A DNA stretch of 64,000 nucleotides from a virus. Location of the stretch: the IMG/VR virus record IMGVR_UViG_3300033146_000946, positions 1-64,000 of that record, one strand, 5' to 3'. The translations under genes were made by a program, and so were the position numbers. The notes under the pieces were generated by a model. It made no database searches. It was given only the letters and a program-made list of their open reading frames with translations, and was not told where the DNA came from. Shown in pieces: positions 34,436 to 49,506 of the stretch (position 1 is its first letter; the number at the start of each line of letters is the position of its first letter).

Positions 34436-34738
34436 ATGGCAGTAACAAAAGAACAAATTGAAAAATGGAAAGCGGAGTTTGGTAAAATTTATAAGATAAC
34501 TCCTGTGTCAGATCTAGAAATAATCTATAAACCTTTATCTAGGAATGATTATATGGATATTATGTCAAAACAAATTGAAGGTTTGATTGAAGATCCTGAA
34601 ATTGAAACTGTTAAATTATGTATCTTAAATGATATAGATGAAAATGATCTTTATTCACGAGGTGGTATTGCTACTGTTGTGTATGAAGATATTATGAAAC
34701 GTTCTGGATTTACAATTGTAGAATCAGAAGAACTATAA
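34436..34738 (+). CDS. Tail assembly chaperone candidate
   Basis: EQIEKWKAEFGKIY..IIYKPLSR.DY..IMKRSGF; position before the tape-measure locus; AGGAGG RBS. Confidence 0.65.
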   Translation: MAVTKEQIEKWKAEFGKIYKITPVSDLEIIYKPLSRNDYMDIMSKQIEGLIEDPEIETVKLCILNDIDENDLYSRGGIATVVYEDIMKRSGFTIVESEEL

Positions 34739-34765: not shown

Positions 34766-34794
34766 AAGGGAGAGTCTTTACTCTCCCTTTCTTT
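34766..34794 (+). terminator. Intrinsic terminator
   Basis: AAGGGAGAGT-cttt-ACTCTCCCTT followed by TCTTT. Confidence 0.8.
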
Positions 34795-34968
34795 ATAAAC
34801 TATCATTTATTAAGAACTAATCTATTATATCTTTATATATATATTATATAATCGCTGGCGCTCAGTTGGTTATATCCAAAAAATAATTAATGACAATACT
34901 ATTGTCAAGAAAAATTTTAAAAAACTTTATAGTATACTATATATAGTAAATTAGTATAAGGAGTTTAC

Positions 34969-35505
34969 ATGAATTTAACAAGACAAACCAAGTTATATAA
35001 ATCTACTTTTGATGATAAAGAAGTAATATATCGAACTTTAAATATAACTGAAATCAATGTTATTAATAATATATCTAATACTTATTATAAATATGATGTA
35101 GCATATGATCTAGCAGTAATTAATAAAGATGATGAAATCAATTATTTAATTAAACAACAAATTGGAAAAGATATTATTGAATCTTCAGCTTTATCTTTAT
35201 CTGACGATATGATATTATCTTTAACTGTTGATGGATTTAGAGAATCAGTTAAAAATGATTTTACTTTAACTCTAATTCCACAAATAATGAATGTATTAAA
35301 TGTTAATTTAGAATATCTACTATCTTTAACAATTGATGATTTAATTGAATTAACTGCTTTATGTGAAATTATGACTAATAAAAAAATATTTAAAGATATA
35401 GATATGCCAAAAGAAGATGTTGCAATTAAAAATGATAATCCACAATTTTTTCCAGAAGATGGAAAATCATTACAAGATAAAATGAAAGAACTAGAAGGTT
35501 TTTAA
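34969..35505 (+). CDS. Second tail assembly chaperone candidate
   Basis: VIYRTLNITE resembles IIYKPLSRND of the preceding gene; coupled to the giant gene. Confidence 0.55.
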   Translation: MNLTRQTKLYKSTFDDKEVIYRTLNITEINVINNISNTYYKYDVAYDLAVINKDDEINYLIKQQIGKDIIESSALSLSDDMILSLTVDGFRESVKNDFTLTLIPQIMNVLNVNLEYLLSLTIDDLIELTALCEIMTNKKIFKDIDMPKEDVAIKNDNPQFFPEDGKSLQDKMKELEGF

Positions 35506-38500
35506 TGTCACACTATGATCCTTATCAGGATAATAACGATAGCTATTATAATCCGCAAAGTAATGTTAATAATAAAGAAAGTGTAGTTCATTCAATAGGC
35601 AGTGCTATTGGAGAAACTGCTAAATCTTTAGTTGGTCAATTAATTGTTCATACTGTTGTTAAATCTGTTGGAAAATTAGCAGGTCGAGGAATCGCAAATG
35701 CTCAACGTTCAAGAGCTACAATGAGATTAAAGCAGAAGAATTTATCATCTTCTCAAAGATCAATGTATCAACGATTATCAAAAGCGGAAACATTTACAGA
35801 TGTATTATCAGCTAGAAGTAAAACATTCGATAGGGTTAGAACTAACGCATGGCGACAAAAGTCAAAAAATATTTTAGAAAAACGTGAAAATGTTTATAAT
35901 AGATTAAAAACTAGAAATCCAATTGGAGCGGAAGCATATAAAGTTAAATCTGCTTTTAAAAATTCTGATACATTTATGGCTGTAGCTATGCATAATGTAG
36001 GTGAATCTATATTAGAAGGATCCATTATAGGATACGCTTACGATGCAGCTACTGGTCAATTAGGACATATGGGTGTAAGAGACGATCTATCTACTTGGAA
36101 TTTACCAGGACATGCTGTAAACTACGCTAAATATATGGTAAAAAATGCTGTTAACTTTGGAGTAATGGGAAATCTTGGTAATATTAAAAGATTTGGCCAA
36201 GCTGGTGCCGCAAATGTTGGTAAAAATTTCTTGAAACATAATAAAGGTTTTGAAGATGCAGTATTAGGATTTGCATCTAAAGTATCTAATGTTAGATATA
36301 AAGGTGCTATGAAACATGGTAGTGATACTGATTATAAAGCACAAGCATTTCAACATGAAATAAATGATAGTTTATTAAAGAAAGTAAAAGATAATGTTGG
36401 CGCAGCACTATCTACTTATACCGATACTATTGCTCCTATGATGCATGAATCATTACATAAACCATTTCAACGCAAACCTACAAAAACACCACAACCAACT
36501 GCTACTCAAAGTGCTGTCAAATTTCAAGATAAAGTTAAACATGGATTGGATCAAGTAAAAAATAGTTTTGAACATAAACGTAATGAGCGAGCAAATAGAT
36601 TATCAAAAGATGTAGATAAAGGTGGATTTGCTATTGCTGATGTTTTATCAGATATGGGTGCAAGATCTAATAATCAATCTGTATTAACTCAACATGGTAA
36701 TTCTAAACAAGCTATAGATGAAATGTTAATGAACCAAAAATCTAGTAGAGGATTTTTAGCTCAAATGTTTGGATTACAACAAACATCTTTAAAAGATACT
36801 TTAACAAAAGATAAAATAGCTGATATAGCTCATGGTATATCTAAATTTACTGATACAAAAGAAGAAATGTTAATTAGACAACTTGGTAATGTTAAAGTTG
36901 GAAATACATTTTTTAAAAAAGGTAAATTTAATGTAGATATGAATTATATGAATCCTCTAAATGTAGTAAAAAGAGGAATGGCTAATATACTTCAATCTAA
37001 TGCTAAAATGTTATATAAATTACCAATGGTTGGAAAATCATTATCATTGGGTGCTATTACTATGTCTGATACTATTCTTGGTACAGAATATAACGCTTTT
37101 TCTTTTAATAATACTGGTACTGGATTTGGATTTGTAGTAGGAACTAAAGGTGGTCCTAAACAAATAGATGATTTATTACGTGAACCTGGTATTTTAAAAC
37201 AAGGATCTAATACTAGTGGCGTTAATGTACATATGGTTAATGATAAATTATATGCTATAGATGGTGCAACTATTACTAAATTAGATTCATATAATGTAGC
37301 AATTAAAGAAACGAGTCCTGCATCTAAATCATTAAGTGAAATGAAAAAGCATGATATGGAAGAATATTTATATCAGAATGCTAAAAACACAGTACCAACA
37401 TCAAAAAGCGAAGCTATAGCAGCTTATGCTAATAATATTAAAAAACAACGAGATGGTTTAGGGTTTTTTGGAAAATTATCAGCTGCTGTATCATGGGATA
37501 AATTAAGTTCTAGTAATGCTATGCAAGGTTTAAAAGAAATCTTTAATATGAAGATTATGCCTAATGGACAAGTACATAGTGTAAAACAACAATTATATGA
37601 CCAAATGGTTGGATCATTTTATGGTAAAGATCCTATATTTAATAAACAAGAAATGATGTCTGTTGGTCGAACAATGTTAGAATCTACTGAACATCATTTA
37701 GCTAATGTTATAAATAGACCACATGTAATAAAACAATTAGCAGAACGTTCAAGTGGATTTATGAATAAAAATAATCTTGGATGGATGTGGGATGATACTG
37801 AATTTGTTCAATTATTACGAGAAGGACGAGCACCTAATGGTGTTATTGATAAAGATTTTTATAAAACATTTTTATCTGATGATGAATCTAAAGCATTATA
37901 TCATACAGTAATACAAAATCCTCGTCGAGCTAAAAAACATATAACACGAGATAGAGTTGGAGCTAGACCAGATTTAGATGCACTTACACAATTACGTACT
38001 AAATTTGCTATGAATGGTTTAGGTAAAGTCGAAGGTGTTGATAGAATGTTAAGTGGTGCAGATTTCTTACATAGACAAGGATTAATAAGTCATTCAGAAG
38101 CAACTGCTATGAAACTTCATGGTAAATTAAATACTATGTTTGCAAAATCTAAAACCTATTTTGGTGAATTAGATCCTGAAATAGTGGATTTAACAGAAAT
38201 GCAAAAATTGTTTAAAGGTAAAAAAGATGGTGTAATAATAAAACAAAATGAATTATTAGATTATGTTATGCAAGATGAAATGCGTAAACCATCTTTAGTT
38301 TATTCAAAAGCAAGATTAGCAGATACGTTATATAGAAATCCAGATGCACCTATGTTTGGATTAGCTCGCGATACAACTCAAGCGATAGGTATATCCTATA
38401 AAAGTGATTCTGATAAGAATATGGCTATGGGTTTAAAAGTATTAAATGTAGGAGCAAATAGAGTATCACATCTAGTATCTGATACATTTAATGCTGTTGG

Positions 38501-41500
38501 TATTGGTGGATTTGAATATGATAATTTCAGATATGGTACTGGTATGTCTGGTTCATTTAAATATCTTGCTAATACAGCTGGTAAAGTAGCAGCAGCAGCT
38601 TTTGCATATAAAGCTATTGATGCTGCAGTTGCATCAGCTCCAGTATTTGATCAAACTGGATTACAAGATGGTATAACAGGATTTTTAGCTGATAATGTAG
38701 CAACTACACATTTAATAGCATCTAAAGCATTAAATTTTACAGGTGTTGCAGGAGCAGGAAGGTATCTTGAAGGGTTAATGCCAGGATTTACATCATCTGC
38801 ACCAGGAGCATTGATTGGTGGTGCTCTTAGAATGGCTGGTGGACCAGGAGCTATGATTGGTGGTGCAATACATGGTGCTATTTGGAATCGAATGTTATCA
38901 GCATATATGCCAGATTTTACTAAAACATATGAACAATTACAAAAAGAATATTCAGGTGAAGAAGAAGTAGCTATTGTAGAAGGTAAAGGATGGTTATTAG
39001 GTACTACACCATTCCAAGGTAATAAAATAGTTGGTTATAAACCAAATTGGTATGTTGAAGCAAAATCAAGATGGAAAGCATCAGATACATTATATGGTTC
39101 TGAATTTAGAAAATTAATACATGAACCATTACCTGGAATAGGTGCTAATATTGGTGATATAATAGATCCATATTATATGGAACGAAAACATTTCTTCGAT
39201 AGGCCATATCCTGTTACTGGAGGATTTTTAGATGAAGTTCCAGTATTTGGTCCATTAATAGATGCTACGTTAGGAAAAATATTTAAACCTAAAAAATTAA
39301 TGCATCAGAAATTTTTAAATGGTGATTCATCAATTGAACATTCTGAAGTTACAGCTATGCCAGTTATACCAATGTCAGAACAATCAGTACATATGCGTAG
39401 TGCTTCACCAATGAAAACAACTAGTCGACATATTAGATCTAATTTTATGGGAGCATGGGTTTATCCAGGTGATCATGCTTCATCAGCACAAATGATAGCT
39501 GATGATTATATGGCAGGATTTGAAAATATGATGGGTTTAGTTGGTTTTGCTGGTGGTGTTGGTAGAACTAATTTAGTAGAACATGAACGTGTAGTTCCAA
39601 CATTAGAAACTGCTGGTAGAATGGCATCTATGACTAGAAGTTATAATGATATGGCATTGGGAGGAATAGGTACTTTATCTGAAGCAATGAGACGTTTTGT
39701 AGGTAAACCAGACCATAGAAAAGTCGGTGTTAATCCAATTCCAAATATGCTTCCAAACTTTCTACCAGGTAGATTTTTAACTGGTGATCCATATGAAAAA
39801 ATAATGAAAGGTGAATTAAGATTACCTGGTACTGCTTATGAAAGAACACATGATATTAATTATGCTATGCCAGGTCGTGCTTCAATGTTCGGTGGTAATT
39901 TAAAAGATATCGTTGCATATTTTACTGGACATAAATCACCATTATTAAAAGAAGAACATGATATATTGGAATATGGTACACATGCTCACGAAGCTATTCA
40001 AAATTGGCTTAAAGCTGAAAATATATTAATATCTGCTGAAAATTTAGTATATGATACAAGAAATAATGTGTCTGGTCATATTGATGGTGTAATTCGAGAT
40101 GGTACAGGTGGTGGTGGTAGAAGAGCTCTTGAAATAAAAACTATATCAGCTAAAGGTTTAAAGAAATTATCAGGACCAAAAAATCAACACGTTGGACAGT
40201 TAAATTTTTATCTTCATGAAATGAAGATGAAAAAAGGTACAATATTATATGTTAATAGAGATAATCCAGCTGAGTTTAAAGTATATGAAATTAATTATAA
40301 TCGAGATAGATATACAAAAGATTTACAAAAAATACATCAAGCTAGAAAAATAGCGTCTGGTATGATAGCACAATCTAAAACGGGTATATCTAAAGGTTTT
40401 AGTTATTCTTGGACAGATAGATTAAATATATTAGCTGACGTTGCGCCAGCATCAAAAGAATTCAAAGAAGCAAAGTGGATAGTTGAACAACAGATAAAAA
40501 ATGGAATGATGGATGAACGTGGAATGAACAAATATAGAAAAGCGTTAAAACATCGACAAGCTACTTTGAGAACTTATGAATTATATCCTACTAGATTTAG
40601 AGGACAAATATTATCACCTGATGCTGAATATAATAGACAAAATGAAAATTATAATATAAAAGCAGGAGCAGAATATAGTTTACCAGAAAGAATAGTTGGA
40701 GCAGTTTGGGAAGAATTTTTAAATACAAATACATTTTTAACTAATAAGTTTTTTGCATTTAAAGATCCATTAGAACATTATTCAGAATATCAAGTATACG
40801 GAAAAGAATATACACCATGGACTGATCCTTATGGTTCATTTGTAAAACCAAGAATAGATAGAGTATTAGGATCAACTGATCCTTTTAAAGGAGCAATAGC
40901 AGGTTCTATTGATGGAGCATATTTATTTGGTGGTAGTCCAATGGCAGCAGTTGGAGCATTTGTAGGTGCTGCTGTTGGTGGTGTTAATGGAATCATGAAA
41001 AGACAACAAAGATGGCTACCTGGAAATATTAAAACTGAAAGACAAATTAATGATTATTTTGATACGTTAGAATATTATAAAAATGAAAGAATGGCAACTT
41101 TGAGTTATGGTATGGAATATGATAGATATAAAAATGCAGCTAATGCTACATTCCATAGTTTAATACAAAATGAAAGTACGGATTATACTAATATATATAG
41201 ATCAGCTTATACGTCAGAAAAACCATATCTATCTGCCTGGTTAAATGAAACTAATCCTGAACGACAAGAAGAAATTTTAAAAATTGTTCCTGAACGATTA
41301 GGAAATGTGTTAGTTAGTCATTGGCAAAAAGAAGGATCAAAAGTTAATACTGAAGATCATATTGATAAAATGTCAGCAGGTTTATTACAAAAACATAATC
41401 CAGAATATGATATGAGAATGTTAGATCCAATGTTACGAACAGAAGATATTAAATTAAAAGCTATTAATAATGCTGGATTAAATGCTCATGATTTTGGATT

Positions 41501-41786
41501 AGGTTGGGCTCCACAATTATTAAGAGCACAAGATGCGATGGATAGAATGCCAGATCCAAATATTAATCAAATTAATTTTAATGAAAATAATGCAGATATG
41601 ATGGATCCAGGTACAGTAAAAGGAGCAATAATGAATATGTTACATTCGATGGGATTAAAAGGTAGAGTTACAGTATTTATAAATAATCATGTAGATGGTG
41701 GATCAAATAAAGCAACTATAACATTACAGCATAATAGAGTGCAAGAAATTCGTGATGCTGTTGATTTTAGAGAGAGGTATATGTAA
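35505..41786 (+). CDS. Tape-measure-position giant protein with glycine zippers and a PD-(D/E)XK nuclease domain
   Basis: Position after chaperones; GxxxG-rich segments; GTHAH..GHIDG..LEIKT..QLNFY. Confidence 0.75.
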   Translation: MSHYDPYQDNNDSYYNPQSNVNNKESVVHSIGSAIGETAKSLVGQLIVHTVVKSVGKLAGRGIANAQRSRATMRLKQKNLSSSQRSMYQRLSKAETFTDVLSARSKTFDRVRTNAWRQKSKNILEKRENVYNRLKTRNPIGAEAYKVKSAFKNSDTFMAVAMHNVGESILEGSIIGYAYDAATGQLGHMGVRDDLSTWNLPGHAVNYAKYMVKNAVNFGVMGNLGNIKRFGQAGAANVGKNFLKHNKGFEDAVLGFASKVSNVRYKGAMKHGSDTDYKAQAFQHEINDSLLKKVKDNVGAALSTYTDTIAPMMHESLHKPFQRKPTKTPQPTATQSAVKFQDKVKHGLDQVKNSFEHKRNERANRLSKDVDKGGFAIADVLSDMGARSNNQSVLTQHGNSKQAIDEMLMNQKSSRGFLAQMFGLQQTSLKDTLTKDKIADIAHGISKFTDTKEEMLIRQLGNVKVGNTFFKKGKFNVDMNYMNPLNVVKRGMANILQSNAKMLYKLPMVGKSLSLGAITMSDTILGTEYNAFSFNNTGTGFGFVVGTKGGPKQIDDLLREPGILKQGSNTSGVNVHMVNDKLYAIDGATITKLDSYNVAIKETSPASKSLSEMKKHDMEEYLYQNAKNTVPTSKSEAIAAYANNIKKQRDGLGFFGKLSAAVSWDKLSSSNAMQGLKEIFNMKIMPNGQVHSVKQQLYDQMVGSFYGKDPIFNKQEMMSVGRTMLESTEHHLANVINRPHVIKQLAERSSGFMNKNNLGWMWDDTEFVQLLREGRAPNGVIDKDFYKTFLSDDESKALYHTVIQNPRRAKKHITRDRVGARPDLDALTQLRTKFAMNGLGKVEGVDRMLSGADFLHRQGLISHSEATAMKLHGKLNTMFAKSKTYFGELDPEIVDLTEMQKLFKGKKDGVIIKQNELLDYVMQDEMRKPSLVYSKARLADTLYRNPDAPMFGLARDTTQAIGISYKSDSDKNMAMGLKVLNVGANRVSHLVSDTFNAVGIGGFEYDNFRYGTGMSGSFKYLANTAGKVAAAAFAYKAIDAAVASAPVFDQTGLQDGITGFLADNVATTHLIASKALNFTGVAGAGRYLEGLMPGFTSSAPGALIGGALRMAGGPGAMIGGAIHGAIWNRMLSAYMPDFTKTYEQLQKEYSGEEEVAIVEGKGWLLGTTPFQGNKIVGYKPNWYVEAKSRWKASDTLYGSEFRKLIHEPLPGIGANIGDIIDPYYMERKHFFDRPYPVTGGFLDEVPVFGPLIDATLGKIFKPKKLMHQKFLNGDSSIEHSEVTAMPVIPMSEQSVHMRSASPMKTTSRHIRSNFMGAWVYPGDHASSAQMIADDYMAGFENMMGLVGFAGGVGRTNLVEHERVVPTLETAGRMASMTRSYNDMALGGIGTLSEAMRRFVGKPDHRKVGVNPIPNMLPNFLPGRFLTGDPYEKIMKGELRLPGTAYERTHDINYAMPGRASMFGGNLKDIVAYFTGHKSPLLKEEHDILEYGTHAHEAIQNWLKAENILISAENLVYDTRNNVSGHIDGVIRDGTGGGGRRALEIKTISAKGLKKLSGPKNQHVGQLNFYLHEMKMKKGTILYVNRDNPAEFKVYEINYNRDRYTKDLQKIHQARKIASGMIAQSKTGISKGFSYSWTDRLNILADVAPASKEFKEAKWIVEQQIKNGMMDERGMNKYRKALKHRQATLRTYELYPTRFRGQILSPDAEYNRQNENYNIKAGAEYSLPERIVGAVWEEFLNTNTFLTNKFFAFKDPLEHYSEYQVYGKEYTPWTDPYGSFVKPRIDRVLGSTDPFKGAIAGSIDGAYLFGGSPMAAVGAFVGAAVGGVNGIMKRQQRWLPGNIKTERQINDYFDTLEYYKNERMATLSYGMEYDRYKNAANATFHSLIQNESTDYTNIYRSAYTSEKPYLSAWLNETNPERQEEILKIVPERLGNVLVSHWQKEGSKVNTEDHIDKMSAGLLQKHNPEYDMRMLDPMLRTEDIKLKAINNAGLNAHDFGLGWAPQLLRAQDAMDRMPDPNINQINFNENNADMMDPGTVKGAIMNMLHSMGLKGRVTVFINNHVDGGSNKATITLQHNRVQEIRDAVDFRERYM

Positions 41787-44700
41787 TGCCAATAACTGAA
41801 ATTTTAGGTGAAGAAATTGAAAATGATAATGATAGAGTAAACTGGTTTGGTAGAGTAATGGTTGGTGGTATGTCTGTTTTAGGACTTGTTGCTATTGCTA
41901 ATAAGATTGGTGGTCCTACAGGTAAAGCTATAAAATTATCAGTTGGTGATCAATTAGAAGAAGAAGTAATAGATGCTGTTAATAAATATGGAAGACAAGC
42001 TGATAAATTAAAATCACCAAGTAGTTTAAAACATAAATTACCAATTAATGGAAAATTAGAAGTAGTTGGAAAATTACCATCAGAACAAGCAATTTCTAAA
42101 TTTGAACGTGTAGTAAATTCTCAAGATAAAATAAACAAAATGATGGAGACACCAACATCATTATATAATAAAATACATGAACTTGAGCGTTCTATTTCTA
42201 CTGTTATTAATGGTGTTGAAAATGGTGATCCTATGATGAAACAGATTAACGCATTACATGGAATAGTTTCAGCTAAAGTTAGGACAAAAGATGCTAAATC
42301 TGATGCTAATAATTATTTATTAATGGCAACCAAAATAAATGCAATGAGAGATTATAGTACTACTGATGTTAAAGGTGAATTAGCACAATATTTAGATGAA
42401 GATATCTGGTATGATAATTTCTTAACTGAAATGAAACCATCTGATATGATTAAATGGAATCAAAATAATGAAACTTTAATAAAAAGTGATACATCATATG
42501 CTAAAAAATATTATAAACAATTACAAAATTTAGAAAAAGAAATTTTAGCTAATAAAATTGCTAGTTCTGCTAATAGTAATAAAGCATTAGAGCTAACACA
42601 TAATAAATTATATGTAAAAGATGCTTTTATGCCTGTTGGTGATTTATTAAATGATGCAGCAGGTTATGTAATAAATGTTACTAATAAATCTATCGAATTA
42701 TTTTCATCTGATTTTAGTAATAATAAAATGAGTGTTGGAGAAATAAAACAAGTAATCGATAAATCTATATCTAAAAACGTTGGATTAAAATCACAATACG
42801 GATCAGAATTAAGTGATATAGCTCATTTATTAGATCAATTTAAAACTATGAGTAATGGTAAAATTACTAATGTTAAAATGACTTATAAAACCACAGAACA
42901 AAGAGGTGTTGAAAAAGCATATGTTGTAATTAATATAGATAGAAAATATGGAAATAATAATACTAGATCATTTTCTATGAATATACCATTAGTTGATAAA
43001 TTTAATATTGTACCAGATATAACTAATACATCACATTTTGGATATGGTGTTGCAGGTATAATAGAATCATTACCAGGAACAAATAAACCAGCTACAGCAA
43101 TAGATATATCTACTTATTATATGAGAACTGTTAAAGATATGTTAACTCAATCTATAATGAGTGAGGTATTATTTACTGATGAAGAATCATTTAATGATGT
43201 ACAAAAAAAATTAAGAAGACCATTATTAGCAATTCAAGATCAATTAAGTGCATTAAATGGTGAAGCTAGAGATATTTTTGCTACAGGAATGTATATACCA
43301 AAAACGCATTTAGATTTAATTGCTGATAAAACAGGTAGTAAAAAAAGACAATTAGCTGATGGTGCTAAAACAATAATAAATATGTTTAATGATAGTAAAA
43401 GAAATACTAATAATGATGTATCTATTGTTTTAGACTTAGAAACAATTCAATTATTAGGAAATGGTTCAGGAAGATATATGTCTGTAAGAAATACTACTTC
43501 AATTTGGTCTGTAGGTTTTTCTATTTTTAAAGGTAATGAATTAATAGATGGTGATCAGATTTCTTCTATGCATGCTTTAAAAGAGCATGATTTATTACGA
43601 GCATATGAAGTTGATAAAGTTGATAAAGGATATATAGCTAGGATGATTGATGAAAATCCTAATATCCGTAAATTTGCTAGATTTGCACAGAAAACAGTTG
43701 GCGGTTCAACTGGTGATGATTCAGTAAGTTTAGCTATAGCATTAAAAAAACATATAGAAATGGTACTAGATGAATCAAACGGATCATTATCTAAAGTAAC
43801 AACAATGCCAGGTATGGGAAATTTTTCAAGTTCAGTTGAATTTGCTCAATCTTTTGTTAAAATGTTGAAAGCTAAAATACGAGATTTACAAGATACTTTA
43901 CAACCAGGAGCAAAGATCACACTTGAAACTGCAAATGGTACTGATTTCGATATAAGATTATTAGAAACATTAACTGGTGATATGGGTTCTATAAGAGATA
44001 TGGTTGAATTTAAAGATATAACTAATGTAAGTAGAACTATGAAATTTGGTAAAAAAGGTATGTTAGGTGATCAGTTAATGCATATCGTTAACCAGTTAGC
44101 ATGGGATCAAGGATATGATAAAGAACATTTTAATGTAGAAGCTAATCCATTAGAAGCATTAAAACAATTACAAAAGAATGGATTAATGAAAACTAATAAA
44201 AATGGTGGTGATATATTAAAATTTGTTGGCGGTAAAATAAAAGGTAATATGGGTTTACATAATTCAGCATTATTAGATACTGTAATGACAAAAGCTGCAG
44301 TTATATTAGCTGAGAATGTAATTGCTAAAGATACTAGTCATGTAGATAAAGCATATGAAATTTTAAATTTATTAGAAAAATATCAAAGAAAAGATTATGA
44401 AGCAACTATTGCTGATTATATGGAATCATCTTTAGGAGTAATAAATGGTAAACAAGTAACTAAATCTGGTATTAGTATGCAACATCGTGTTGATAATTAT
44501 TATACACATTTTAACGTAGCTGATGTTATGCCATTATTAGCAAATAATCCAGTATCTAAACAAGCAAATCAATATTTAAGACATGGTTGGTTTCAAAAAA
44601 ATGTTAAAGCTGCATATTGGCGATATGGAAAAATGATTACATCTCCAATAGAAGAAGTAGCTACAGATTTAGCATATAGAACTACAGGATTTGATAAAAA

Positions 44701-47700
44701 TAGATTTGCTAATAAAGTTATATTAAATACAGCATATACAATTGGTGGATATGGTATGCAATCTGGATATAGTGCTATACCTAAATTTATAGATGATGAA
44801 TTTGATCAAATGTTATATAATCAAAAACGAGTTCAATTTAATTTTGCTGATACTGATTTTCCAGATGCATCTATGTCTAATACTATTAGAGAAGTATATG
44901 ATAAAGCTATGGTTAGAGCTCGTAAAATGATGAGTGATAAAGGATTAGGTCCAGTTAAAAGTAAGCATAAAATATCCAAAAGTGTATTAGAAGAAGCATT
45001 TAGAATAGAATTAGGAAATATACAAAATAAAGAATCTTTGATATTAGATCCAGAAAACCCAATACATCAAAATATTATGTTTGGTGATGGTAAATTAAAT
45101 ATTAAACAAAATACTCCAGGAAAATTAGTAGGTATTGAATTAGGTGGTGATATTAATAATGATAAACCAGCTTCAATGTTATTATTATTTGATTATAAAT
45201 CTTCTTTAAATTTACAGATAGATCATTTACCAGATAATAAATCAGTTGTTACTAAATTACAACATGTAGATCAAGAAGTACTTAGAACTATGGGTAGAAA
45301 ATATACACATGGATTAATTGAATCACAAGTAGATATGCGTACAATAGAAAAAGGATATACTGGAGAATTACAAAGAAAAGCATTATTAAAAATAATAGGA
45401 CATGTTAATAAAATAGGTCATATTGGGTCATCAGATGCATCTAAGAGAGTATGGACTGATTCAGAAAAATTTGCATCTGATAAAATAATGAAAAAAGTAA
45501 TATCATTGTTTAAAGAAAAAGCTGCAACAGATGGTATGCATGTTGGATCTATTGATGAAGAAAATGGTTTTAAATCATTTATATTTGGTGCATTAAAACC
45601 AGGAACAGTAGATGTTAAAGAACAAATGAATATGTTATCTACTATTAAAATGTCGGATATTATGGATATATTTGGTGAAGCAGGTGGTGATCTCATACAT
45701 GATTATAAAAGTTTAAAAGAATATTATGGTTTATTTAGTAATGATGGTATAATTGAAACTGCTCATAATATCGATTCAAAATTAGTAGCTAAAGGCTTTT
45801 CAGAAAAAGGTACAAAAGAAGGAGATTTATTAGAACAAATGTTAAATATGGATGATACTATAAAAGAAAATAAAGCATTAATAAATCCATTTCAAGCAGC
45901 TGCTAATAAATATAATAGAAAGCATGGTGATAGTGCATTACAAAAAAAATTACAAGGATACATTGATGCTAATGATTTACAATCTGCTGATAATTTAATT
46001 AAGAAATTAAAAATTGGAAAATTATTTCAAGCAGTAGGTGATATGAGTGCAGTTAATAGAAATATTATGGCTGGTAAAACTGGAGATGAAAGGTTTGATA
46101 AATTAATGGGTATTGTTGTTCCTACTATTCATCACTTTAGTGATTCTCAATCTATGAAACAAAAACAAGTTAATAAAACTATTAAATTTCGAGCTAATTA
46201 TTTTGATACAATTTTTCATGAAAATTATTTACCAGAAAGAGTAAAACAAGTATTAGCATCAAGTCAAGGTTGGAAAGCTGACAAAGCAGGTTTAGATTTA
46301 GTTAAAACATCTCGTGCAGTTATAGACATGTTTAAAAATAATAATCTTAGTAAATTAATGACTAATTATAGTTTAAATCAACAACAAATGTTAGATATCA
46401 TTGGTAATCCACTAACTAATAAACAAATAGATAGAGCATTAGAAAGATTAAGTTTAGCTGATGGTAAAAGTTCAAAGAGAAAAGCTGCTATAATTAGTGA
46501 AGTAATAGATAGTATTAAAAAAACAGGAACAACTATATCATTAGAAGAAGAAGAAGAAATAAGATCTAGAAGTATTAATTATTTTAAAGATAAATTGATT
46601 GCAACTAAAAACAGACCTTCTTCTTTATCAGCTACCGAAGCATTACATGTAATATCTTTAAGTGAAGATCAAAATGCTAAAGTAGTTGGTTTAAAATTTT
46701 ATGAATATAAAGAACTTGATAAAGATACAGGAAAATTAGTATCTAAAGTTATATCAAAAGAAACTAGAGCTAAATTAATTAAAAAAGGTATTAGTAAAGA
46801 TCAATTCAAATCATGGGGTGGACAAATTAGATTTGATTTAGAAGATATGATATCTAGATTGAATGAAAAAGAATCTGATCCATTTAATCTACGTCAATTT
46901 ATTGATCATTTTTCACATCTTAAAAATACACCTGGTCGTGCTGATAATAGAATCTTTAATGTCAAAGAAGTTAATGGTAGAAAAATAATTGAAATGAACG
47001 CATTAGTTATGCCAATGTTTAGTGATATTAGAAATGTATTCAATCAAATTGGTGATGTTGAAGGTTATGGTGTTGCTACAAAAGAATTTAAATTAATGCA
47101 AGAAGTCGCTAATGGTTTAAAAGATTATGCTAATTCCTTTATTGATGGTAAAGGTAATAATTCTATGAATAATAGAACTGGTGACGACTTAGCTTTTAAC
47201 TATTTCCAAATGTTAGGTGGAATTATGAATTTTGGAAAAGATTCACAATTATTTGATGCTGTTAAAAAATTCCATTTAGTAGGTAGTAGACATACATATG
47301 GTGTAAGTGATCAACATGTATTATTAGCACAATATACCTTAAAAGGAATAGATGGTAAAAGTACTGGTTCAAAACAAAGAATGTTAGATTTTTTCAAAAA
47401 AAATAATATGGATGCTTCACAACAAAGTGCATTTATGGATCAGATAAGAAGTGTAGCTTTATCTGATGGACATACAGCATTAGTAAATGCTGAAGATTTT
47501 TTTGGTGATAATATAAAAGTAAATACAGGTAATGGTAAAAGTATGACTTTTGGTCAAATGTTATCTGATGCAAAAGCTAATGATAAACATTTATATAATG
47601 AATTATTAAAAATTCAAAATGGTAGAGCAACTATGCCAGGTTTCACTGGTAGATATCCTATCCCATCAGCTGGAGAACTTGGATTATCTATGGTTAATAT

Positions 47701-49291
47701 TTTAGGTCTTAGTAGAGAAGTGATGGATTTTTTAGGTATGAGTACTGATATGACATATTTTAATTCTGTTATAGCTGAAGCTCGTAAAGCTGATACTGAT
47801 GGTGATGAAACTGAGTTAATGCAATTAGGATATAGAACAATCGAACATTTAAATGAAATGAGAGCAGCAACAAAAGAATCACATGCTAGAACTGTAGGTA
47901 GTCATGGACTTCAATATCTTATTAATGAATATAATAGAAGTGGTGCATTAATAGGTAAGGAAATGAAAGGTGGTGTAGAATATTATAAAGTTGGTAAATT
48001 AGCACCTAATGGTTCAATGATTGAAGAATTAGTTACAAAAGATGAATATTTTAATAAATTTGATTCAGGTATATCTAAAAATTTTAAAAAAATTCTTAGT
48101 CAAGACTGGATAGAAGGAACTAATATACATAATATAGCAAATGGTGTAGAACGTCATTTAGCAACAGGTGAAATTGGTACAGCTGCTCAATCATTAATTG
48201 GTTTAATTTCTAATACGATGAGTGAAAGAGTAAAAGATTTACATCGTTTAAATAAAATACTTCCTGATAATGTTCCAACTGATATAAACTTTTTGGATTC
48301 AATTCAATCAATAAAATTTGGTATGGCTAATATGCATCAAACTGCAATTGCTATGGGTAAACATAATACGTTTGAAAAAGCAATAAATTTAGCACATGCT
48401 ATTGGTTTCTGGGAATCAAAAGTTAATAATAAACAAGCTTCACGAGAACAAGTTCAAGCAGCTGAAAAAGCATGGATGCATAATTTTTATGATGATTGGG
48501 ATACAAAAAAATTAAATCCATATTGGGAAAAAAATGACGAAACAAGAGCATTTGTTCAAAAACAACAAGACTTATTTAATACTTTTAAAACTGCTATGCC
48601 ATTTATAGATCAAGTTTATAAAAAAGATCCACAAATAGGAAGATACTTAAAAAATGAAAGCGATTTATCTAGTGGTAAAATGGGAACAGATATTACTGCT
48701 GCATTATGGAATGAATCTATGGATCATGGTATTTATGATGATGCTATATCTCATATTAATTCATCAACTCGAGAAGCAACAGCAGAATTAATTCAACATG
48801 TAATAGATAAACAAAGTGGTGATTTTAAATATGATAATGGACCTACAAAACGAAGTAAAGCTTTTAATCATTTTTATACTAATAATAATATACATGTTAA
48901 AAATGCAATGATGCATGGTGGTAAATTTGCAGCTTTTGGTATGTTAGCAGTTGCAGCATTAAATATGTTTAAACCTATGGCTGGTACTGGAATTGATGCA
49001 CCAGGTGTACATAATAATTTTACTGCTAGTGAATTACAATTAGATAGAAGAATAGCTATAGATCAAGTTGATGCATCTTTTAGTAAAGAAGCATTTGCTT
49101 ATATGAATGATCAAGATTCAACTGCTAGAGAAAAAAAATCATTATATGGTGCTACACAATTAGCAATATATGATAATTTAATTAGACCAGAACCTACTCA
49201 TAAACAATTTAGAAGTAATCTTAATATACAACAGATAAATAGAATGACTTATATTGGTCCATTTGGTAATTCTAATTTTGATAGTAGGTAA
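41786..49291 (+). CDS. Giant protein: DEDDh exonuclease-like domain plus putative single-chain two-barrel RNA polymerase (virion RNAP candidate)
   Basis: LDLET / NGTDFD / HNSALLD; NKSVVTKL, GRYP, ADTDGD, GEIG, QTAIAMGKH in the expected order. Confidence 0.65.
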   Translation: MPITEILGEEIENDNDRVNWFGRVMVGGMSVLGLVAIANKIGGPTGKAIKLSVGDQLEEEVIDAVNKYGRQADKLKSPSSLKHKLPINGKLEVVGKLPSEQAISKFERVVNSQDKINKMMETPTSLYNKIHELERSISTVINGVENGDPMMKQINALHGIVSAKVRTKDAKSDANNYLLMATKINAMRDYSTTDVKGELAQYLDEDIWYDNFLTEMKPSDMIKWNQNNETLIKSDTSYAKKYYKQLQNLEKEILANKIASSANSNKALELTHNKLYVKDAFMPVGDLLNDAAGYVINVTNKSIELFSSDFSNNKMSVGEIKQVIDKSISKNVGLKSQYGSELSDIAHLLDQFKTMSNGKITNVKMTYKTTEQRGVEKAYVVINIDRKYGNNNTRSFSMNIPLVDKFNIVPDITNTSHFGYGVAGIIESLPGTNKPATAIDISTYYMRTVKDMLTQSIMSEVLFTDEESFNDVQKKLRRPLLAIQDQLSALNGEARDIFATGMYIPKTHLDLIADKTGSKKRQLADGAKTIINMFNDSKRNTNNDVSIVLDLETIQLLGNGSGRYMSVRNTTSIWSVGFSIFKGNELIDGDQISSMHALKEHDLLRAYEVDKVDKGYIARMIDENPNIRKFARFAQKTVGGSTGDDSVSLAIALKKHIEMVLDESNGSLSKVTTMPGMGNFSSSVEFAQSFVKMLKAKIRDLQDTLQPGAKITLETANGTDFDIRLLETLTGDMGSIRDMVEFKDITNVSRTMKFGKKGMLGDQLMHIVNQLAWDQGYDKEHFNVEANPLEALKQLQKNGLMKTNKNGGDILKFVGGKIKGNMGLHNSALLDTVMTKAAVILAENVIAKDTSHVDKAYEILNLLEKYQRKDYEATIADYMESSLGVINGKQVTKSGISMQHRVDNYYTHFNVADVMPLLANNPVSKQANQYLRHGWFQKNVKAAYWRYGKMITSPIEEVATDLAYRTTGFDKNRFANKVILNTAYTIGGYGMQSGYSAIPKFIDDEFDQMLYNQKRVQFNFADTDFPDASMSNTIREVYDKAMVRARKMMSDKGLGPVKSKHKISKSVLEEAFRIELGNIQNKESLILDPENPIHQNIMFGDGKLNIKQNTPGKLVGIELGGDINNDKPASMLLLFDYKSSLNLQIDHLPDNKSVVTKLQHVDQEVLRTMGRKYTHGLIESQVDMRTIEKGYTGELQRKALLKIIGHVNKIGHIGSSDASKRVWTDSEKFASDKIMKKVISLFKEKAATDGMHVGSIDEENGFKSFIFGALKPGTVDVKEQMNMLSTIKMSDIMDIFGEAGGDLIHDYKSLKEYYGLFSNDGIIETAHNIDSKLVAKGFSEKGTKEGDLLEQMLNMDDTIKENKALINPFQAAANKYNRKHGDSALQKKLQGYIDANDLQSADNLIKKLKIGKLFQAVGDMSAVNRNIMAGKTGDERFDKLMGIVVPTIHHFSDSQSMKQKQVNKTIKFRANYFDTIFHENYLPERVKQVLASSQGWKADKAGLDLVKTSRAVIDMFKNNNLSKLMTNYSLNQQQMLDIIGNPLTNKQIDRALERLSLADGKSSKRKAAIISEVIDSIKKTGTTISLEEEEEIRSRSINYFKDKLIATKNRPSSLSATEALHVISLSEDQNAKVVGLKFYEYKELDKDTGKLVSKVISKETRAKLIKKGISKDQFKSWGGQIRFDLEDMISRLNEKESDPFNLRQFIDHFSHLKNTPGRADNRIFNVKEVNGRKIIEMNALVMPMFSDIRNVFNQIGDVEGYGVATKEFKLMQEVANGLKDYANSFIDGKGNNSMNNRTGDDLAFNYFQMLGGIMNFGKDSQLFDAVKKFHLVGSRHTYGVSDQHVLLAQYTLKGIDGKSTGSKQRMLDFFKKNNMDASQQSAFMDQIRSVALSDGHTALVNAEDFFGDNIKVNTGNGKSMTFGQMLSDAKANDKHLYNELLKIQNGRATMPGFTGRYPIPSAGELGLSMVNILGLSREVMDFLGMSTDMTYFNSVIAEARKADTDGDETELMQLGYRTIEHLNEMRAATKESHARTVGSHGLQYLINEYNRSGALIGKEMKGGVEYYKVGKLAPNGSMIEELVTKDEYFNKFDSGISKNFKKILSQDWIEGTNIHNIANGVERHLATGEIGTAAQSLIGLISNTMSERVKDLHRLNKILPDNVPTDINFLDSIQSIKFGMANMHQTAIAMGKHNTFEKAINLAHAIGFWESKVNNKQASREQVQAAEKAWMHNFYDDWDTKKLNPYWEKNDETRAFVQKQQDLFNTFKTAMPFIDQVYKKDPQIGRYLKNESDLSSGKMGTDITAALWNESMDHGIYDDAISHINSSTREATAELIQHVIDKQSGDFKYDNGPTKRSKAFNHFYTNNNIHVKNAMMHGGKFAAFGMLAVAALNMFKPMAGTGIDAPGVHNNFTASELQLDRRIAIDQVDASFSKEAFAYMNDQDSTAREKKSLYGATQLAIYDNLIRPEPTHKQFRSNLNIQQINRMTYIGPFGNSNFDSR

Positions 49292-49302
49292 TATATTAAA
49301 GA

Positions 49303-49316
49303 TACTATACTATATT
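49303..49316 (+). promoter_or_regulatory. Putative late promoter motif TACTATACTATATT
   Basis: Intergenic, heading the baseplate unit. Confidence 0.7.
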
Positions 49317-49332
49317 CAAAAAGGACTATAAT

Positions 49333-49506
49333 ATGAGTATAATAGAAACTAATATCGTAGTAGATATAAATGACCCAAATGTAACACCACAAATAATAGC
49401 TCAATTAGAATCAATATTATCAAGTATAAATGGTAAACCCGTGGAAGTTAATGTAATAAATATGGATGATCCCATATCTATGAGTCCATTAAATTATAAA
49501 GTATAA
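49333..49506 (+). CDS. 57-aa protein (not in ORF track)
   Basis: AAGGA RBS; MSIIETNIVVDINDPNVTPQIIAQLESILSSINGKPVEVNVINMDDP... Confidence 0.65.
   Translation: MSIIETNIVVDINDPNVTPQIIAQLESILSSINGKPVEVNVINMDDPISMSPLNYKV

What the first reader, a model, noticed from the sequence alone, without database searches (positions are those of the whole stretch)
34930..49506. Integrated injected-enzyme module: chaperone + nuclease/glycine-zipper giant + exonuclease/RNAP giant
Seen: after a terminator and its own promoter motif, three genes are coupled by TAATG overlaps (35505, 41786). Both giants appear Cys-free and Gly/Ala/Met-rich and carry membrane-type segments (GALIGGALRMAGGPGAMIGGAIHG; GAIAGS..AAVGAFVGAAVGG; GGMSVLGLVAIA; FAAFGMLAVAAL). 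Inference: they are unfolded, ejected through the tail and assembled at the membrane into a channel-associated transcription/DNA-processing complex. This would be analogous to crAssvirus cargo proteins but in a contractile-tailed phage, where transcription might also pull in the genome. Best candidate for an undescribed system in this window.
Basis: inference. Interest (0 to 1): 0.85.

Follow-up and report, generated by a model that had tools for sequence, protein, structure and literature searches.

The report
Tail-packaged RNA polymerase and nucleases
At the spot where a jumbo contractile-tailed phage should encode its tail tape-measure protein sit two cysteine-free giant proteins carrying a DNA-cutting domain, a DnaQ-type exonuclease and a complete single-chain RNA polymerase, probably delivered into the host with the DNA; a tape-measure-borne polymerase was so far described only for Thermus siphoviruses.

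Summary
The two TAATG stop/start overlaps, the upstream terminator, the four quoted hydrophobic Gly-rich segments and the absence of cysteine in 4,594 consecutive residues all check out. Only the "own promoter" is unsupported.

- P0002 (2093 aa) is a homologue of Bacillus phage 0305phi8-36 gp145, a virion protein by mass spectrometry. It carries an intact RecB/Cas4-like PD-(D/E)xK nuclease without the Fe-S cysteines.
- P0003 (2501 aa) sits at the tape-measure position. It contains a DEDDh exonuclease fold with all five catalytic residues invariant. It also contains a beta-like and a beta'-like RNA polymerase module with an invariant RxP...DxDxD.
- The 178-aa gene and the 100-aa gene before it correspond to the two-gene tail chaperonin of 0305phi8-36.
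- The whole array was conserved in all seven related loci examined.

Ejection and membrane assembly remain inference. The closest precedent is the tape-measure-fused virion RNA polymerase of Thermus phage P23-45, not crAss cargo.

I rate it a new variant of a known kind: a contractile tail, a polymerase closer to multisubunit enzymes, an added exonuclease and a nuclease-bearing partner.

This scan met the same family before on other DNA (e1-5377021).

The parts
34436..34738 (+). 100-aa acidic protein (pI 4.4); counterpart of the shared 'G-like' domain of the 0305phi8-36 two-gene tail chaperonin. It lies outside the finding's start.
   Evidence: BLASTP to the gp143 C-terminal domain, E 1.8e-8, and to Moorella phage CDS0024/0025, E 7e-11 and 5e-8. 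Conserved as a 98-100-aa gene in relatives. The chaperonin role of gp143/144 is itself an inference of PMC2147016.
34766..34789 (+). Intrinsic-terminator-like hairpin with T-run between the 100-aa gene and P0001
   Evidence: 10-bp stem with 5 GC pairs. 3 sites found against 0.1 expected.
34969..35505 (+). P0001, 178-aa acidic protein (pI 4.4); probable second tail chaperonin (gp144-like). Its stop overlaps the start of P0002.
   Evidence: BLASTP chain: P0001 to L011 242-aa, E 3e-6; that protein to 0305phi8-36 gp144, E 6e-5, and to Moorella CDS0025, E 2e-8. No Pfam or PHROG hit.
35505..41786 (+). P0002, 2093 aa, Cys-free. Member of the 0305phi8-36 gp145 family of virion proteins. The N-terminal half is variable; the C-terminal half (aa ~1030-2093) is highly conserved.
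   Evidence: A family HMM matches gp145 at E 1e-153. gp145 was identified in virions by mass spectrometry according to the record annotation.
38799..38879 (+). Gly/Ala-rich glycine-zipper-like segment 1 of P0002 (aa 1099-1125)
   Evidence: G1105, G1113, G1119, G1120 and G1124 are invariant in the three closest homologues. G1124 is invariant in 25 sequences.
39951..40352 (+). PD-(D/E)xK RecB/Cas4-like nuclease domain of P0002 (aa 1483-1616): D1527, E1543-x-K1545, Q1565-x3-Y1569. No Fe-S cysteines.
   Evidence: PHROG 1706, 1990 and 2506 at E 1.5e-17, 1.1e-9 and 1e-9. Profile against PDB: Cas4 SSO0001 4ic1, E 1e-4, with motifs aligned. D, E, K and Y are invariant in 22 sequences.
40890..40997 (+). 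Hydrophobic Gly/Ala-rich segment 2 of P0002 (aa 1796-1831)
   Evidence: Kyte-Doolittle 1.65. G1810, G1821 and G1825 are nearly invariant.
41786..49291 (+). P0003, 2501 aa, Cys-free, at the tape-measure position (between the gp145 homologue and the gp147-type hub). The family has very constant length.
   Evidence: 32 representatives; full-length ones 2268-2501 aa. Synteny and with 0305phi8-36.
41843..41917 (+). N-terminal hydrophobic glycine-zipper segment of P0003 (aa 20-44)
   Evidence: Kyte-Doolittle 1.65. W20-G46 are largely invariant in close homologues. G33, G43 and P44 are nearly invariant in 24 sequences.
43400..44335 (+). DEDDh (DnaQ-like) 3'-5' exonuclease domain of P0003 (aa ~539-850): D550, E552, D722, H825, D831. 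A large insert separates motifs I and II.
   Evidence: All five residues are invariant in 24 sequences. The AF2 model has pLDDT 85-91 here. VIA Z: ExoI 10.5, 3'hExo 10.5, RNase T 10.4, Pol III epsilon 10.2 with 169 of 174 residues aligned. Foldseek DnaQ domain 8h2f, prob 0.99.
44507..46162 (+). RNA polymerase beta (second-largest subunit)-like module of P0003 (aa ~908-1459)
   Evidence: VIA-wide: phiKZ non-virion RNAP chain C Z 12.2 (295 aligned), bacterial beta 6j9e_C Z 11.9, Pol I A135 Z 10.5, AR9 nvRNAP chain C Z 10.5. The Foldseek list is headed by A135, ASFV and bacterial beta subunits, best E 5e-3.
46334..48055 (+). RNA polymerase beta' (largest subunit)-like module of P0003 (aa ~1517-2090), including the double-psi beta-barrel
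   Evidence: Foldseek PDB: at least 191 matches at E<=1e-3, and all listed are largest RNAP subunits, best 4.2e-6. VIA Z: Rpb1 9.3, archaeal A' 9.3, vaccinia 9.1, AR9 8.1, QDE-1 7.8, P23-45 gp96 7.3. Isolated DPBB domains match model residues 731-940.
47792..47806 (+). Catalytic-type metal-binding motif D2003-T-D2005-G-D2007, preceded by R1956-x-P1958
   Evidence: The three Asp, the Arg and the Pro are invariant in 24 sequences. The single reported alignment of hhalign places the motif on DFDGD of P23-45 gp96 and on NADFDGD of E. coli beta'. Both have E ~0.05, which is weak.
48917..48985 (+). C-terminal hydrophobic segment of P0003 (aa 2378-2400), followed by a conserved C-terminal tail
   Evidence: F2395 invariant; P2397, A2430, S2431, F2432 nearly invariant.
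49333..49506 (+). Conserved 57-aa ORF between P0003 and the hub giant
   Evidence: Counterparts of 47-64 aa at the same place in seven relatives.
49518..57197 (+). P0004, 2559 aa; homologue of the 0305phi8-36 gp147 baseplate hub / cell-wall hydrolase giant. Context only, not part of the finding.
   Evidence: phrog_20474, E 1.4e-37. BLASTP to gp147, E 1.6e-15 and 5.8e-14. PMC2147016 describes gp147 as an enlarged T4 gp27 homologue.

Best explanation
The stretch is the tail-interior (tape-measure) module of an uncultured, low-GC jumbo myovirus related to Bacillus phage 0305phi8-36.

Gene order:
- Two small acidic tail chaperonins: the 100-aa gene and P0001.
- P0002, a gp145-family virion protein.
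- P0003, the protein at the tape-measure position. P0001, P0002 and P0003 are translationally coupled.
- A 57-aa protein.
- The hub giant.

Domains:
- P0002 carries an intact RecB/Cas4-type nuclease domain between Gly-rich hydrophobic segments.
- P0003 is bracketed by hydrophobic Gly-rich ends. It contains a DnaQ-type DEDDh exonuclease followed by a beta-like and a beta'-like module, so it is a single-chain two-barrel RNA polymerase.

Shown here: the domains, their intact catalytic residues, the family-wide lack of cysteine, the constant lengths and the conserved gene array.

Inferred:
- Both giants are loaded into the tail tube with the help of the chaperonins.
- They leave through the tube on contraction.
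- Their hydrophobic segments insert in the envelope.
- The polymerase transcribes the first phage genes as the DNA enters, as proposed for Thermus phage P23-45 gp96.
- The two nucleases act on host or incoming nucleic acid.
For: Phage type and gene order:
- Terminase, portal, capsid, sheath, tube paralogues and baseplate J are present.
- The same order is found in 0305phi8-36. There gp145 and gp146 were found in virions by mass spectrometry, gp146 is the assigned tape measure, and gp143/144 are the assigned chaperonins.

P0002:
- It is homologous to gp145 (HMM E 1e-153).
- Nuclease domain.

P0003:
- Exonuclease: five invariant DEDDh residues and Z about 10 to many DEDD exonucleases.
- Beta-like module: Z 12.2 and 11.9 over about 290 residues.
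- Beta'-like module: Foldseek E 4e-6, with at least 191 RNAP hits.
- Invariant RxP...DxDxD.
- Viral structure library: RNAP subunits of giant viruses and jumbo phages, plus an uncharacterised protein of the cultured phage ME3.

Composition and length:
- Cys-free in this phage and in both families. Also in gp145, gp146, ME3 gp035 and gp036, and Moorella CDS0026 and CDS0027.
- Length constancy: P0003 family 2268-2501 aa; intein-free P0002 family 2003-2165 aa.

Conservation:
- The array and the coupling were conserved in 7 of 7 relatives, down to 15-23% identity.

Precedent:
- A tape-measure-fused, experimentally active virion RNAP exists in P23-45 (PMC10770324).
Against: - No direct evidence that P0003 or any sequence homologue of it is in a virion. 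0305phi8-36 gp146 shows no detectable similarity to P0003 and lacks DxDxD.
- No Pfam, PHROG or PDB sequence match for P0003.
- The RNAP assignment rests on AlphaFold models of moderate quality (mean pLDDT 69 and 70) built from 24 sequences.
- The beta-like barrel's catalytic lysines, the bridge helix and the trigger loop were not mapped.
- A folded polymerase of about 1,200 residues must somehow pass a narrow tube.
- No target promoters were identified.
- No second (non-virion) polymerase was found in the 147 kb available, which is estimated 64% complete.
Confidence: 0.65

Rival explanations
1. P0003 is an ordinary structural tape measure, and P0002 a structural tail protein. Their enzyme-like folds are relics that no longer catalyse anything; only length and the hydrophobic ends matter.
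For: 0305phi8-36 gp146 fills the same position with almost the same length (2537 aa) and no cysteine. It has no polymerase motif and no detectable similarity to P0003, so the position can be filled without enzymes. In the most divergent P0002 relatives the nuclease E-x-K is altered to Q-K-I-K or lost. Lengths are tightly conserved.
Against: All five DEDDh residues, the three Asp of DxDxD and the RxP are invariant in 24 sequences that share only 15-30% identity. Nuclease D, E, K and Y are invariant in 22 sequences. Such retention is not expected of relic sites. Inteins, which usually sit at conserved sites of essential proteins, interrupt P0002 homologues at several conserved positions.
Confidence: 0.1
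2. The enzymes are active, but P0003 is not delivered from the virion. It is a non-virion polymerase/exonuclease that happens to be encoded in the late tail operon and works inside the producing cell, for example in late transcription or DNA processing.
For: No virion proteomics exists for any P0003-family member. The gene is expressed with late structural genes. No other phage polymerase was found in the available 147 kb.
Against: - It lies exactly at the tape-measure position, translationally coupled to a homologue of a mass-spectrometry-verified virion protein.
- Its hydrophobic Gly-rich termini are conserved.
- Lack of cysteine is shared with every tail-interior giant of this phage group, against 1.1% Cys in the non-structural genes.
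- Family length is constant.
- A late-made enzyme is what a virion polymerase must be.
Confidence: 0.12
3. The two-barrel enzyme with its attached 3'-5' exonuclease is not a transcriptase. It is a proofreading or end-processing nucleic-acid polymerase: a DNA polymerase in the manner of archaeal PolD, a primase-like enzyme, or an RNA-dependent enzype like QDE-1.
For: A DnaQ-type exonuclease fused directly upstream of a polymerase is typical of replicative DNA polymerases, not of RNA polymerases (established knowledge). QDE-1 (Z 7.8) and the QDE-2-interacting exonuclease QIP (Z 8.5) are among the fold matches.
Against: The best and longest fold matches are to beta and beta' of DNA-dependent multisubunit RNA polymerases, about 290 residues each. 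No PolD chain appears in either top-50 list, though absence from a list is weak evidence. The phage has its own family-B DNA polymerase with exonuclease and a primase-helicase.
Confidence: 0.08

Closest known systems
Thermus phage P23-45 gp96, tape-measure-fused virion RNA polymerase (Chaban et al., Nat Commun 2024, PMC10770324; PDB 8h2m/8h2n)
   Same: - A giant protein at the tape-measure position with a two-barrel polymerase carrying DxDxD.
- Hydrophobic membrane-type segments.
- The proposed ejection through the tail and transcription of the entering DNA.
- The polymerase was missed by sequence searches and recognised from the motif.
- Fold match Z 7.3, and hhalign aligns RxP...DxDGD with gp96 738-783.
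   Different: - gp96 belongs to a siphovirus with a non-contractile tail.
- Its polymerase is N-terminal, lacks a clamp, and clusters with QDE-1/crAss-type single-subunit enzymes.
- Here the tail is contractile, the polymerase lies in the C-terminal two thirds of the protein, and it matches beta and beta' of multisubunit enzymes better and over longer stretches.
- Here a DEDDh exonuclease is fused in front, there is no metallopeptidase, and a second giant with a nuclease is coupled to it.
- No significant sequence similarity to gp96 (prob 1%).
Bacillus phage 0305phi8-36 tail module gp143-gp147 (Hardies et al. 2007, PMC2147016)
   Same: - Same gene order: two chaperonins, gp145, tape-measure-position giant, hub giant.
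- P0002 is a gp145 homologue (E 1e-153), P0004 a gp147 homologue, and the 100-aa protein a gp143-domain homologue.
- gp145 and gp146 are also Cys-free and of similar length.
   Different: - gp146 has no DxDxD, no DEDDh motifs and no detectable similarity to P0003.
- That phage is reported to have a separate YonO-like polymerase gene instead (PMC7824862).
- No function had been proposed for gp145.
Jumbo-phage multisubunit RNA polymerases (phiKZ and AR9 non-virion RNAPs; PDB 7ogp, 7s00)
   Same: They give the best fold match of the beta-like module (phiKZ chain C, Z 12.2) and good matches of the beta'-like module. They are phage enzymes derived from beta and beta'.
   Different: Those enzymes are made of four or five separate split subunits. 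Their virion forms are thought to travel with the capsid contents, not as part of a tail protein. Here beta-like and beta'-like parts are one chain inside a 2501-aa tail-position protein.
crAss-like phage cargo proteins, including virion RNAP gp66 of phi14:2
   Same: A giant single-chain two-barrel polymerase delivered from the virion.
   Different: In crAss-like podoviruses the cargo is stored in the capsid/muzzle, not at a tape-measure position of a long tail (my own knowledge, not tested here). gp66 does not appear among the top fold matches, which is no evidence of absence.
Cas4 / RecB-family PD-(D/E)xK nucleases (for example SSO0001, PDB 4ic1)
   Same: The D...E-x-K and Q-x3-Y motifs of P0002 align with Cas4 SSO0001. 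PHROG Cas4-type families match at E 1.5e-17.
   Different: No Fe-S cluster cysteines. The domain is embedded in a 2093-aa virion protein.

Membership tests
Two-barrel (double-psi beta-barrel) RNA polymerase superfamily | Beta'-type barrel carrying the metal-binding DxDxD loop | tested here: met
   D2003, D2005 and D2007 are invariant in 24 sequences, with R1956-x-P1958 upstream. Model residues 731-940 match beta' subunits and isolated DPBB domains.
Two-barrel (double-psi beta-barrel) RNA polymerase superfamily | Second, beta-type barrel with conserved basic residues facing the active site | tested here: inconclusive
   A beta-like module is present: Z 12.2 and 11.9 to the barrel-bearing C-terminal halves of beta subunits. 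I had no model coordinates, so I could not locate the barrel or its lysines. K1189 and G1193 (KGYxGSxK) are candidates only.
Two-barrel (double-psi beta-barrel) RNA polymerase superfamily | Bridge helix and trigger loop after the beta' barrel | tested here: inconclusive
   Long helices and the conserved IGLxTNTxRxR and GKH motifs follow the barrel. Only one match (7ob9_A) extends to model residue 1095.
Two-barrel (double-psi beta-barrel) RNA polymerase superfamily | Template-dependent RNA synthesis | not testable with these tools
   Needs a biochemical assay.
Tape-measure-fused virion RNAP (P23-45 gp96 type) | Encoded at the tape-measure position, after the tail chaperone genes and before the hub | tested here: met
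   Synteny with 0305phi8-36 gp143-gp147 and seven uncultured relatives.
Tape-measure-fused virion RNAP (P23-45 gp96 type) | Protein present in the virion | not testable with these tools
   Only the neighbour's homologue gp145 and the positional equivalent gp146 have mass-spectrometry evidence. gp146 is not detectably homologous to P0003.
Tape-measure-fused virion RNAP (P23-45 gp96 type) | Common descent with gp96 (sequence or closest-fold relationship) | tested here: inconclusive
   hhalign probability is 1%, E 0.045, with the motif correctly aligned. VIA Z 7.3 over 98 residues is lower than for multisubunit enzymes. The feature works like gp96 but is probably an independent fusion.
DEDDh (DnaQ-like) 3'-5' exonucleases | RNase H-like exonuclease fold | tested here: met
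   Z 10.0-10.6 to PARN, ExoI, 3'hExo, RNase T, ERI2, Pol III epsilon and ExoX, over model residues 40-360 with pLDDT 85-91.
DEDDh (DnaQ-like) 3'-5' exonucleases | Catalytic D-x-E, D, and H-x(4-5)-D in order | tested here: met
   D550, E552, D722, H825 and D831 are invariant in 24 sequences. The H-to-D spacing is one residue longer than the canonical H-x4-D in most members.
Cas4 proper | Four-cysteine Fe-S cluster | tested here: not met
   P0002 has no cysteine at all. It is therefore filed as a RecB-type PD-(D/E)xK domain, not as Cas4.
PD-(D/E)xK RecB-type nuclease domain | D...E-x-K core plus Q-x3-Y | tested here: met
0305phi8-36 gp145 virion-protein family | Full-length sequence homology | tested here: met
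   Family HMM against gp145, E 1e-153 in six collinear stretches. tblastn 30% identity over 64% of the C-terminal half.
Classical tape measure protein | Match to a tape-measure family model | tested here: not met
   No Pfam or PHROG tape-measure family hits either giant. Language-model neighbours of P0003 aa 1700-2250 include tape-measure clusters, but only at scores of 0.82-0.83, which are below the level of evidence.
Classical tape measure protein | Length proportional to tail length | not testable with these tools
   No virion images. Only the family's constant length is seen.
Tail assembly chaperone (lambda G/GT type) | Two products sharing an N-terminal domain, encoded just upstream of the tape-measure region | tested here: inconclusive
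   Position is met. The 100-aa protein matches the shared domain of gp143/gp144. P0001 is linked only through an intermediate. No direct 100-aa/P0001 similarity was found, and a frameshift was not looked for.

The most novel reading that the evidence does not exclude
A large clade of jumbo contractile-tailed phages, perhaps including the cultured Acinetobacter phage ME3, loads its tail tube with a complete take-over kit. The kit consists of a membrane-anchored single-chain beta-beta' RNA polymerase fused to a DnaQ-type exonuclease, and a partner giant with a RecB-type nuclease.

After contraction these would form the trans-envelope conduit. The polymerase would both express the first genes and help draw in the >200-kb genome. 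The nucleases would clear host or competing DNA, or trim the entering end.

This would be an independent second invention of the tape-measure polymerase, derived from multisubunit-type enzymes.
Probability: 0.3. Interest if true: 0.85.

Novelty: new variant of a known kind. Interest (0 to 1): 0.72.

Why it matters
- It would show that carrying the first transcriptase on the tail's internal protein is not a curiosity of a few Thermus siphoviruses. It would be a recurrent solution, reached independently in a widespread group of jumbo myoviruses.
- It gives an unannotated but very conserved family its first domain-level reading. That family is the gp145-like proteins: at least 123 clusters, often carrying inteins, in contigs up to 437 kb.
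- It adds a new lineage of fused beta-beta' enzymes to the catalogue of minimal RNA polymerases.
- It poses a sharp physical question: how about 1,500 residues of folded enzyme travel through a tail tube. The family-wide absence of cysteine points towards transit in a non-native state.
- A probable relative in the cultured phage ME3 makes the idea testable at the bench.

Tried and rejected
Searches with P0003 that found nothing or nothing usable:
- Pfam and PHROGs on the whole protein and on cut-out domains: no hit.
- PDB sequence searches with the protein and with three profiles: only chance-level hits.
- megablast of the finding's whole stretch (34930-49506) and tblastn of P0003 against 50,697 phage records: no match.
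- Language-model atlas on P0003 aa 1700-2250 and on P0002 aa 1130-1480: scores 0.77-0.86, not usable.
- hhalign of the beta-like profile against E. coli beta: nothing meaningful.
- Family HMM, BLASTP and a C-terminal sub-profile against 0305phi8-36 gp146: no significant similarity. I had thought the C-terminal hydrophobic stretches looked alike by eye; this was not supported.
- Six-frame search of the 0305phi8-36, ME3 and Moorella phage records with the polymerase profile: nothing. The ME3 link therefore rests on a weak HMM hit (E 0.03) and a BFVD fold match (E 1e-4).

Other polymerase genes and signals:
- Pfam Rpb2_6 on the own genome: none. Rpb1_2: one 16-bit hit in a 220-aa ORF, judged chance.
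- Sigma-70 promoter scan: at chance level.
- I could not identify which 0305phi8-36 ORF is the YonO-like ABS83659.1 from the accession order. I dropped the search for its homologue here.

Not run:
- No complex prediction was run for P0001 with the giants, because the binding region is unknown and the pair exceeds the size limit.

Full report
**Context.** The window is the first 64 kb of a 147-kb IMG/VR virus record, estimated 64% complete, with about 27% GC. On the + strand it encodes terminase, portal, protease, major capsid protein and a 958-aa tail sheath. These are followed by tube paralogues, four ORFs of 1691-2559 aa, and baseplate proteins including a gp25-like and a baseplate-J protein. 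It is therefore a contractile-tailed phage, probably jumbo-sized. The rest of the record encodes a family-B DNA polymerase, a primase-helicase, a UvrD helicase and a ligase.

**Observation.** The three ORFs, the two TAATG stop/start overlaps and the hairpin terminator at 34766-34789 are as described. Sigma-70-like promoter matches in the gap are at chance level (8 against 9.0 expected), so the "own promoter" is not confirmed. Both giants lack cysteine. The other ORFs of the record have 0.77% Cys (0.43% in the structural block, 1.13% in the non-structural part), so about 36 would be expected. The enrichment in Gly, Ala and Met and the four quoted hydrophobic segments are present.

**Relatives and synteny.**
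- P0003 has 32 representative relatives in 1.8 billion proteins. Nearly all are 2268-2501 aa.
- The conserved C-terminal half of P0002 finds at least 123 clusters. Most are 2003-2165 aa long. Many are lengthened by inteins inserted near P0002 positions 1228, 1392, 1431-1443, about 1565-1615 and 1740.
- In seven contigs carrying relatives down to 15-23% identity, the order is the same: a ~100-aa gene, a ~180-240-aa gene, the P0002-like gene, the P0003-like gene overlapping it, a 47-64-aa gene, and a giant of 2250-2590 aa where it is complete.

**Link to a studied phage.** tblastn with the conserved half of P0002 hits ORF145 of Bacillus phage 0305phi8-36 and counterparts in Moorella phage MTATph1, Bacillus phages WH1 and Edson, and Acinetobacter phage ME3. 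A family HMM matches gp145 at E 1e-153.

In 0305phi8-36 the order is as follows:
- sheath, tube, tube paralogue and gp142;
- gp143 and gp144, annotated as "hypothetical tail chaperonins";
- gp145, a virion protein by mass spectrometry;
- gp146, 2537 aa, annotated as "hypothetical tape measure protein" and a virion protein by mass spectrometry;
- gp147, the hub with cell-wall-degrading domains.

Hardies et al. assigned the tape measure to orf146 from its correlation with tail length. [quoted passage not shown]

P0004 matches gp147. The 100-aa protein matches the domain shared by gp143 and gp144 (E 1.8e-8). P0001 is linked to gp144 through an intermediate. P0003 thus sits at the tape-measure position, but gp146 shows no detectable similarity to it and has no DxDxD. 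Every giant at these two positions that I looked at is Cys-free, in 0305phi8-36, ME3, the Moorella phage and the uncultured relatives. The exception is where an intein is present.

**P0002.** Residues 1483-1616 match PHROG families of Cas4-type and RecB-type exonucleases (E 1.5e-17). A 22-sequence profile of this domain finds Cas4 SSO0001 (4ic1) at E 1e-4, with the D, E-x-K and Q-x3-Y motifs aligned. D1527, E1543, K1545 and Y1569 are invariant in those 22 sequences. A few very divergent members have altered motifs. There is no Fe-S cluster. The remaining conserved regions, which are rich in invariant Gly, Pro, Trp, Arg and Asp, have no recognisable relative and were not folded.

**P0003.** In an alignment of 24 full-length members (15-29% identity to P0003) only 16 columns are invariant. 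They include the following:
- D550, E552, D722, H825 and D831, which is the DEDDh set in order;
- R1956, P1958, D2003, D2005 and D2007, which is the RxP...DxDxD signature of the beta' barrel;
- Q2185 and K2192.

Two AlphaFold models were built from this alignment.

Model 1 covers aa 1100-2299 and has mean pLDDT 69, rising to 80-94 around the motif.
- Foldseek gave at least 191 PDB matches at E<=1e-3. All those listed are largest subunits of multisubunit RNA polymerases, best 4.2e-6.
- An independent all-against-representatives alignment gave Z 9.3-8.0 over about 230-300 residues to Rpb1, archaeal A', Pol I, vaccinia, AR9, ASFV and bacterial beta'. It also gave QDE-1 7.8, P74-26 gp62 7.6, P23-45 gp96 7.3, and isolated double-psi barrels.

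Model 2 covers aa 500-1699 and has mean pLDDT 70, with 85-91 over the first 370 residues. It matched two groups of proteins:
- For residues 409-958, second-largest subunits: phiKZ non-virion RNAP chain C Z 12.2 (295 aligned), bacterial beta 11.9, Pol I A135 10.5, and AR9 10.5.
- For residues 40-360, a long list of DEDD exonucleases at Z about 10.

hhalign, although statistically weak (E about 0.05), puts the family's DxDxD on DFDGD of gp96 and on NADFDGD of E. coli beta'.

The viral structure library returns RNAP subunits of giant viruses and jumbo phages. It also returns an uncharacterised ME3 protein (E 1e-4) and a siphovirus "minor tail protein". ME3 gp036 (1603 aa, Cys-free, at the same position) has DHDQD at the place where a weak HMM alignment puts the motif.

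The resulting layout of P0003 is:
- hydrophobic Gly-rich N-terminus;
- about 500 residues of unknown fold;
- DEDDh exonuclease;
- beta-like module;
- beta'-like module;
- a poorly conserved stretch;
- a hydrophobic segment and a conserved tail.

**Mechanism.** What is shown is the domain content, the intact catalytic residues, the composition, the length constancy and the conserved coupled array at the tape-measure place. What is inferred, from the precedent of P23-45 gp96 (PMC10770324) and from virion detection of gp145 and gp146, is the following:
- Both giants are tail-tube contents assembled with the two chaperonins.
- They are expelled on contraction.
- They anchor in the envelope through their Gly-rich hydrophobic segments.
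- The polymerase transcribes the entering DNA.

The roles of the exonuclease and of the P0002 nuclease are open. Candidates are host DNA or RNA degradation, trimming of the entering end, and proofreading. The rivals are relic folds, a non-virion enzyme, and a non-transcriptional polymerase. I give them 0.10, 0.12 and 0.08.

**Novelty.** Full-text searches found the tape-measure/polymerase association only in the P23-45 work. That paper does not mention contractile-tailed or jumbo phages. The survey of jumbo phages by Iyer et al. notes only a separate YonO-like enzyme for 0305phi8-36.

Compared with gp96, the present family differs in these respects:
- tail type;
- position of the polymerase in the protein;
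- closer resemblance to multisubunit beta and beta';
- the fused exonuclease;
- the coupled nuclease-bearing partner.

I therefore class it as a new variant of a known kind. An earlier follow-up in this scan (e1-5377021) reached a similar reading for the P0002 family on another genome, so the scan has met this before.

Noticed in passing
window 29307-34382: A 1691-aa protein just upstream. Its C-terminus is an NlpC/P60/CHAP peptidoglycan peptidase (Pfam E 2.3e-9). Its middle holds long, acidic, repeat-like helical sequence. Another reader suggests its N-terminus is a third tube paralogue. It has only 1 Cys.
   Followed up: partly
window ~49716-49800 (P0004 aa ~67-94): A perfect tandem duplication of 14 residues (VSFLPGHLNLNTSK twice) near the N-terminus of the hub giant. 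It could be a real recent duplication or an assembly artefact.
   Followed up: no
P0002 relatives; for example P0069, P0093, P0105, P0124: Inteins (LAGLIDADG plus splicing domains) interrupt gp145-family proteins at no fewer than four or five different conserved sites, up to three in one protein. The extein is Cys-free while the intein brings the only cysteines (12 in L020's 2437-aa protein).
   Followed up: partly
L015 (Moorella phage MTATph1) 17369-24725: The protein after the gp145 homologue is only 1309 aa and is followed by a transposase gene and two small ORFs. It contains an LDLET stretch that a weak HMM alignment places on exonuclease motif I. It may be a P0003-type gene split by a transposon.
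   Followed up: no
L016 (Acinetobacter phage vB_AbaM_ME3) 14552-23154: The cultured phage ME3 has a shorter version of the pair: gp035 of 1263 aa and gp036 of 1603 aa, both Cys-free. gp036 carries DHDQD, and a BFVD model of an ME3 protein matches the polymerase model (E 1e-4). L012 has a similar short pair (1310 and 1573 aa).
   Followed up: partly
own genome G000:C1:86300-86962 (outside the window): A 220-aa ORF gives a sub-threshold match to Pfam RNA_pol_Rpb1_2 (16.4 bits, below the cut-off of 25.3). It is probably chance, but it is the only other polymerase-like signal in the record.
   Followed up: partly
own genome G000:C1:84224-85243, minus strand (outside the window): A free-standing 339-aa ORF with a faint PD-(D/E)xK hit (PDDEXK_3, E 0.04). 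Another reader noted its likeness to the P0002 nuclease domain.
   Followed up: no
window 36000-42000: GC rises to 0.30-0.34 over P0002 against 0.23-0.27 around it. This fits its Gly/Ala-rich, strongly conserved C-terminal half.
   Followed up: no
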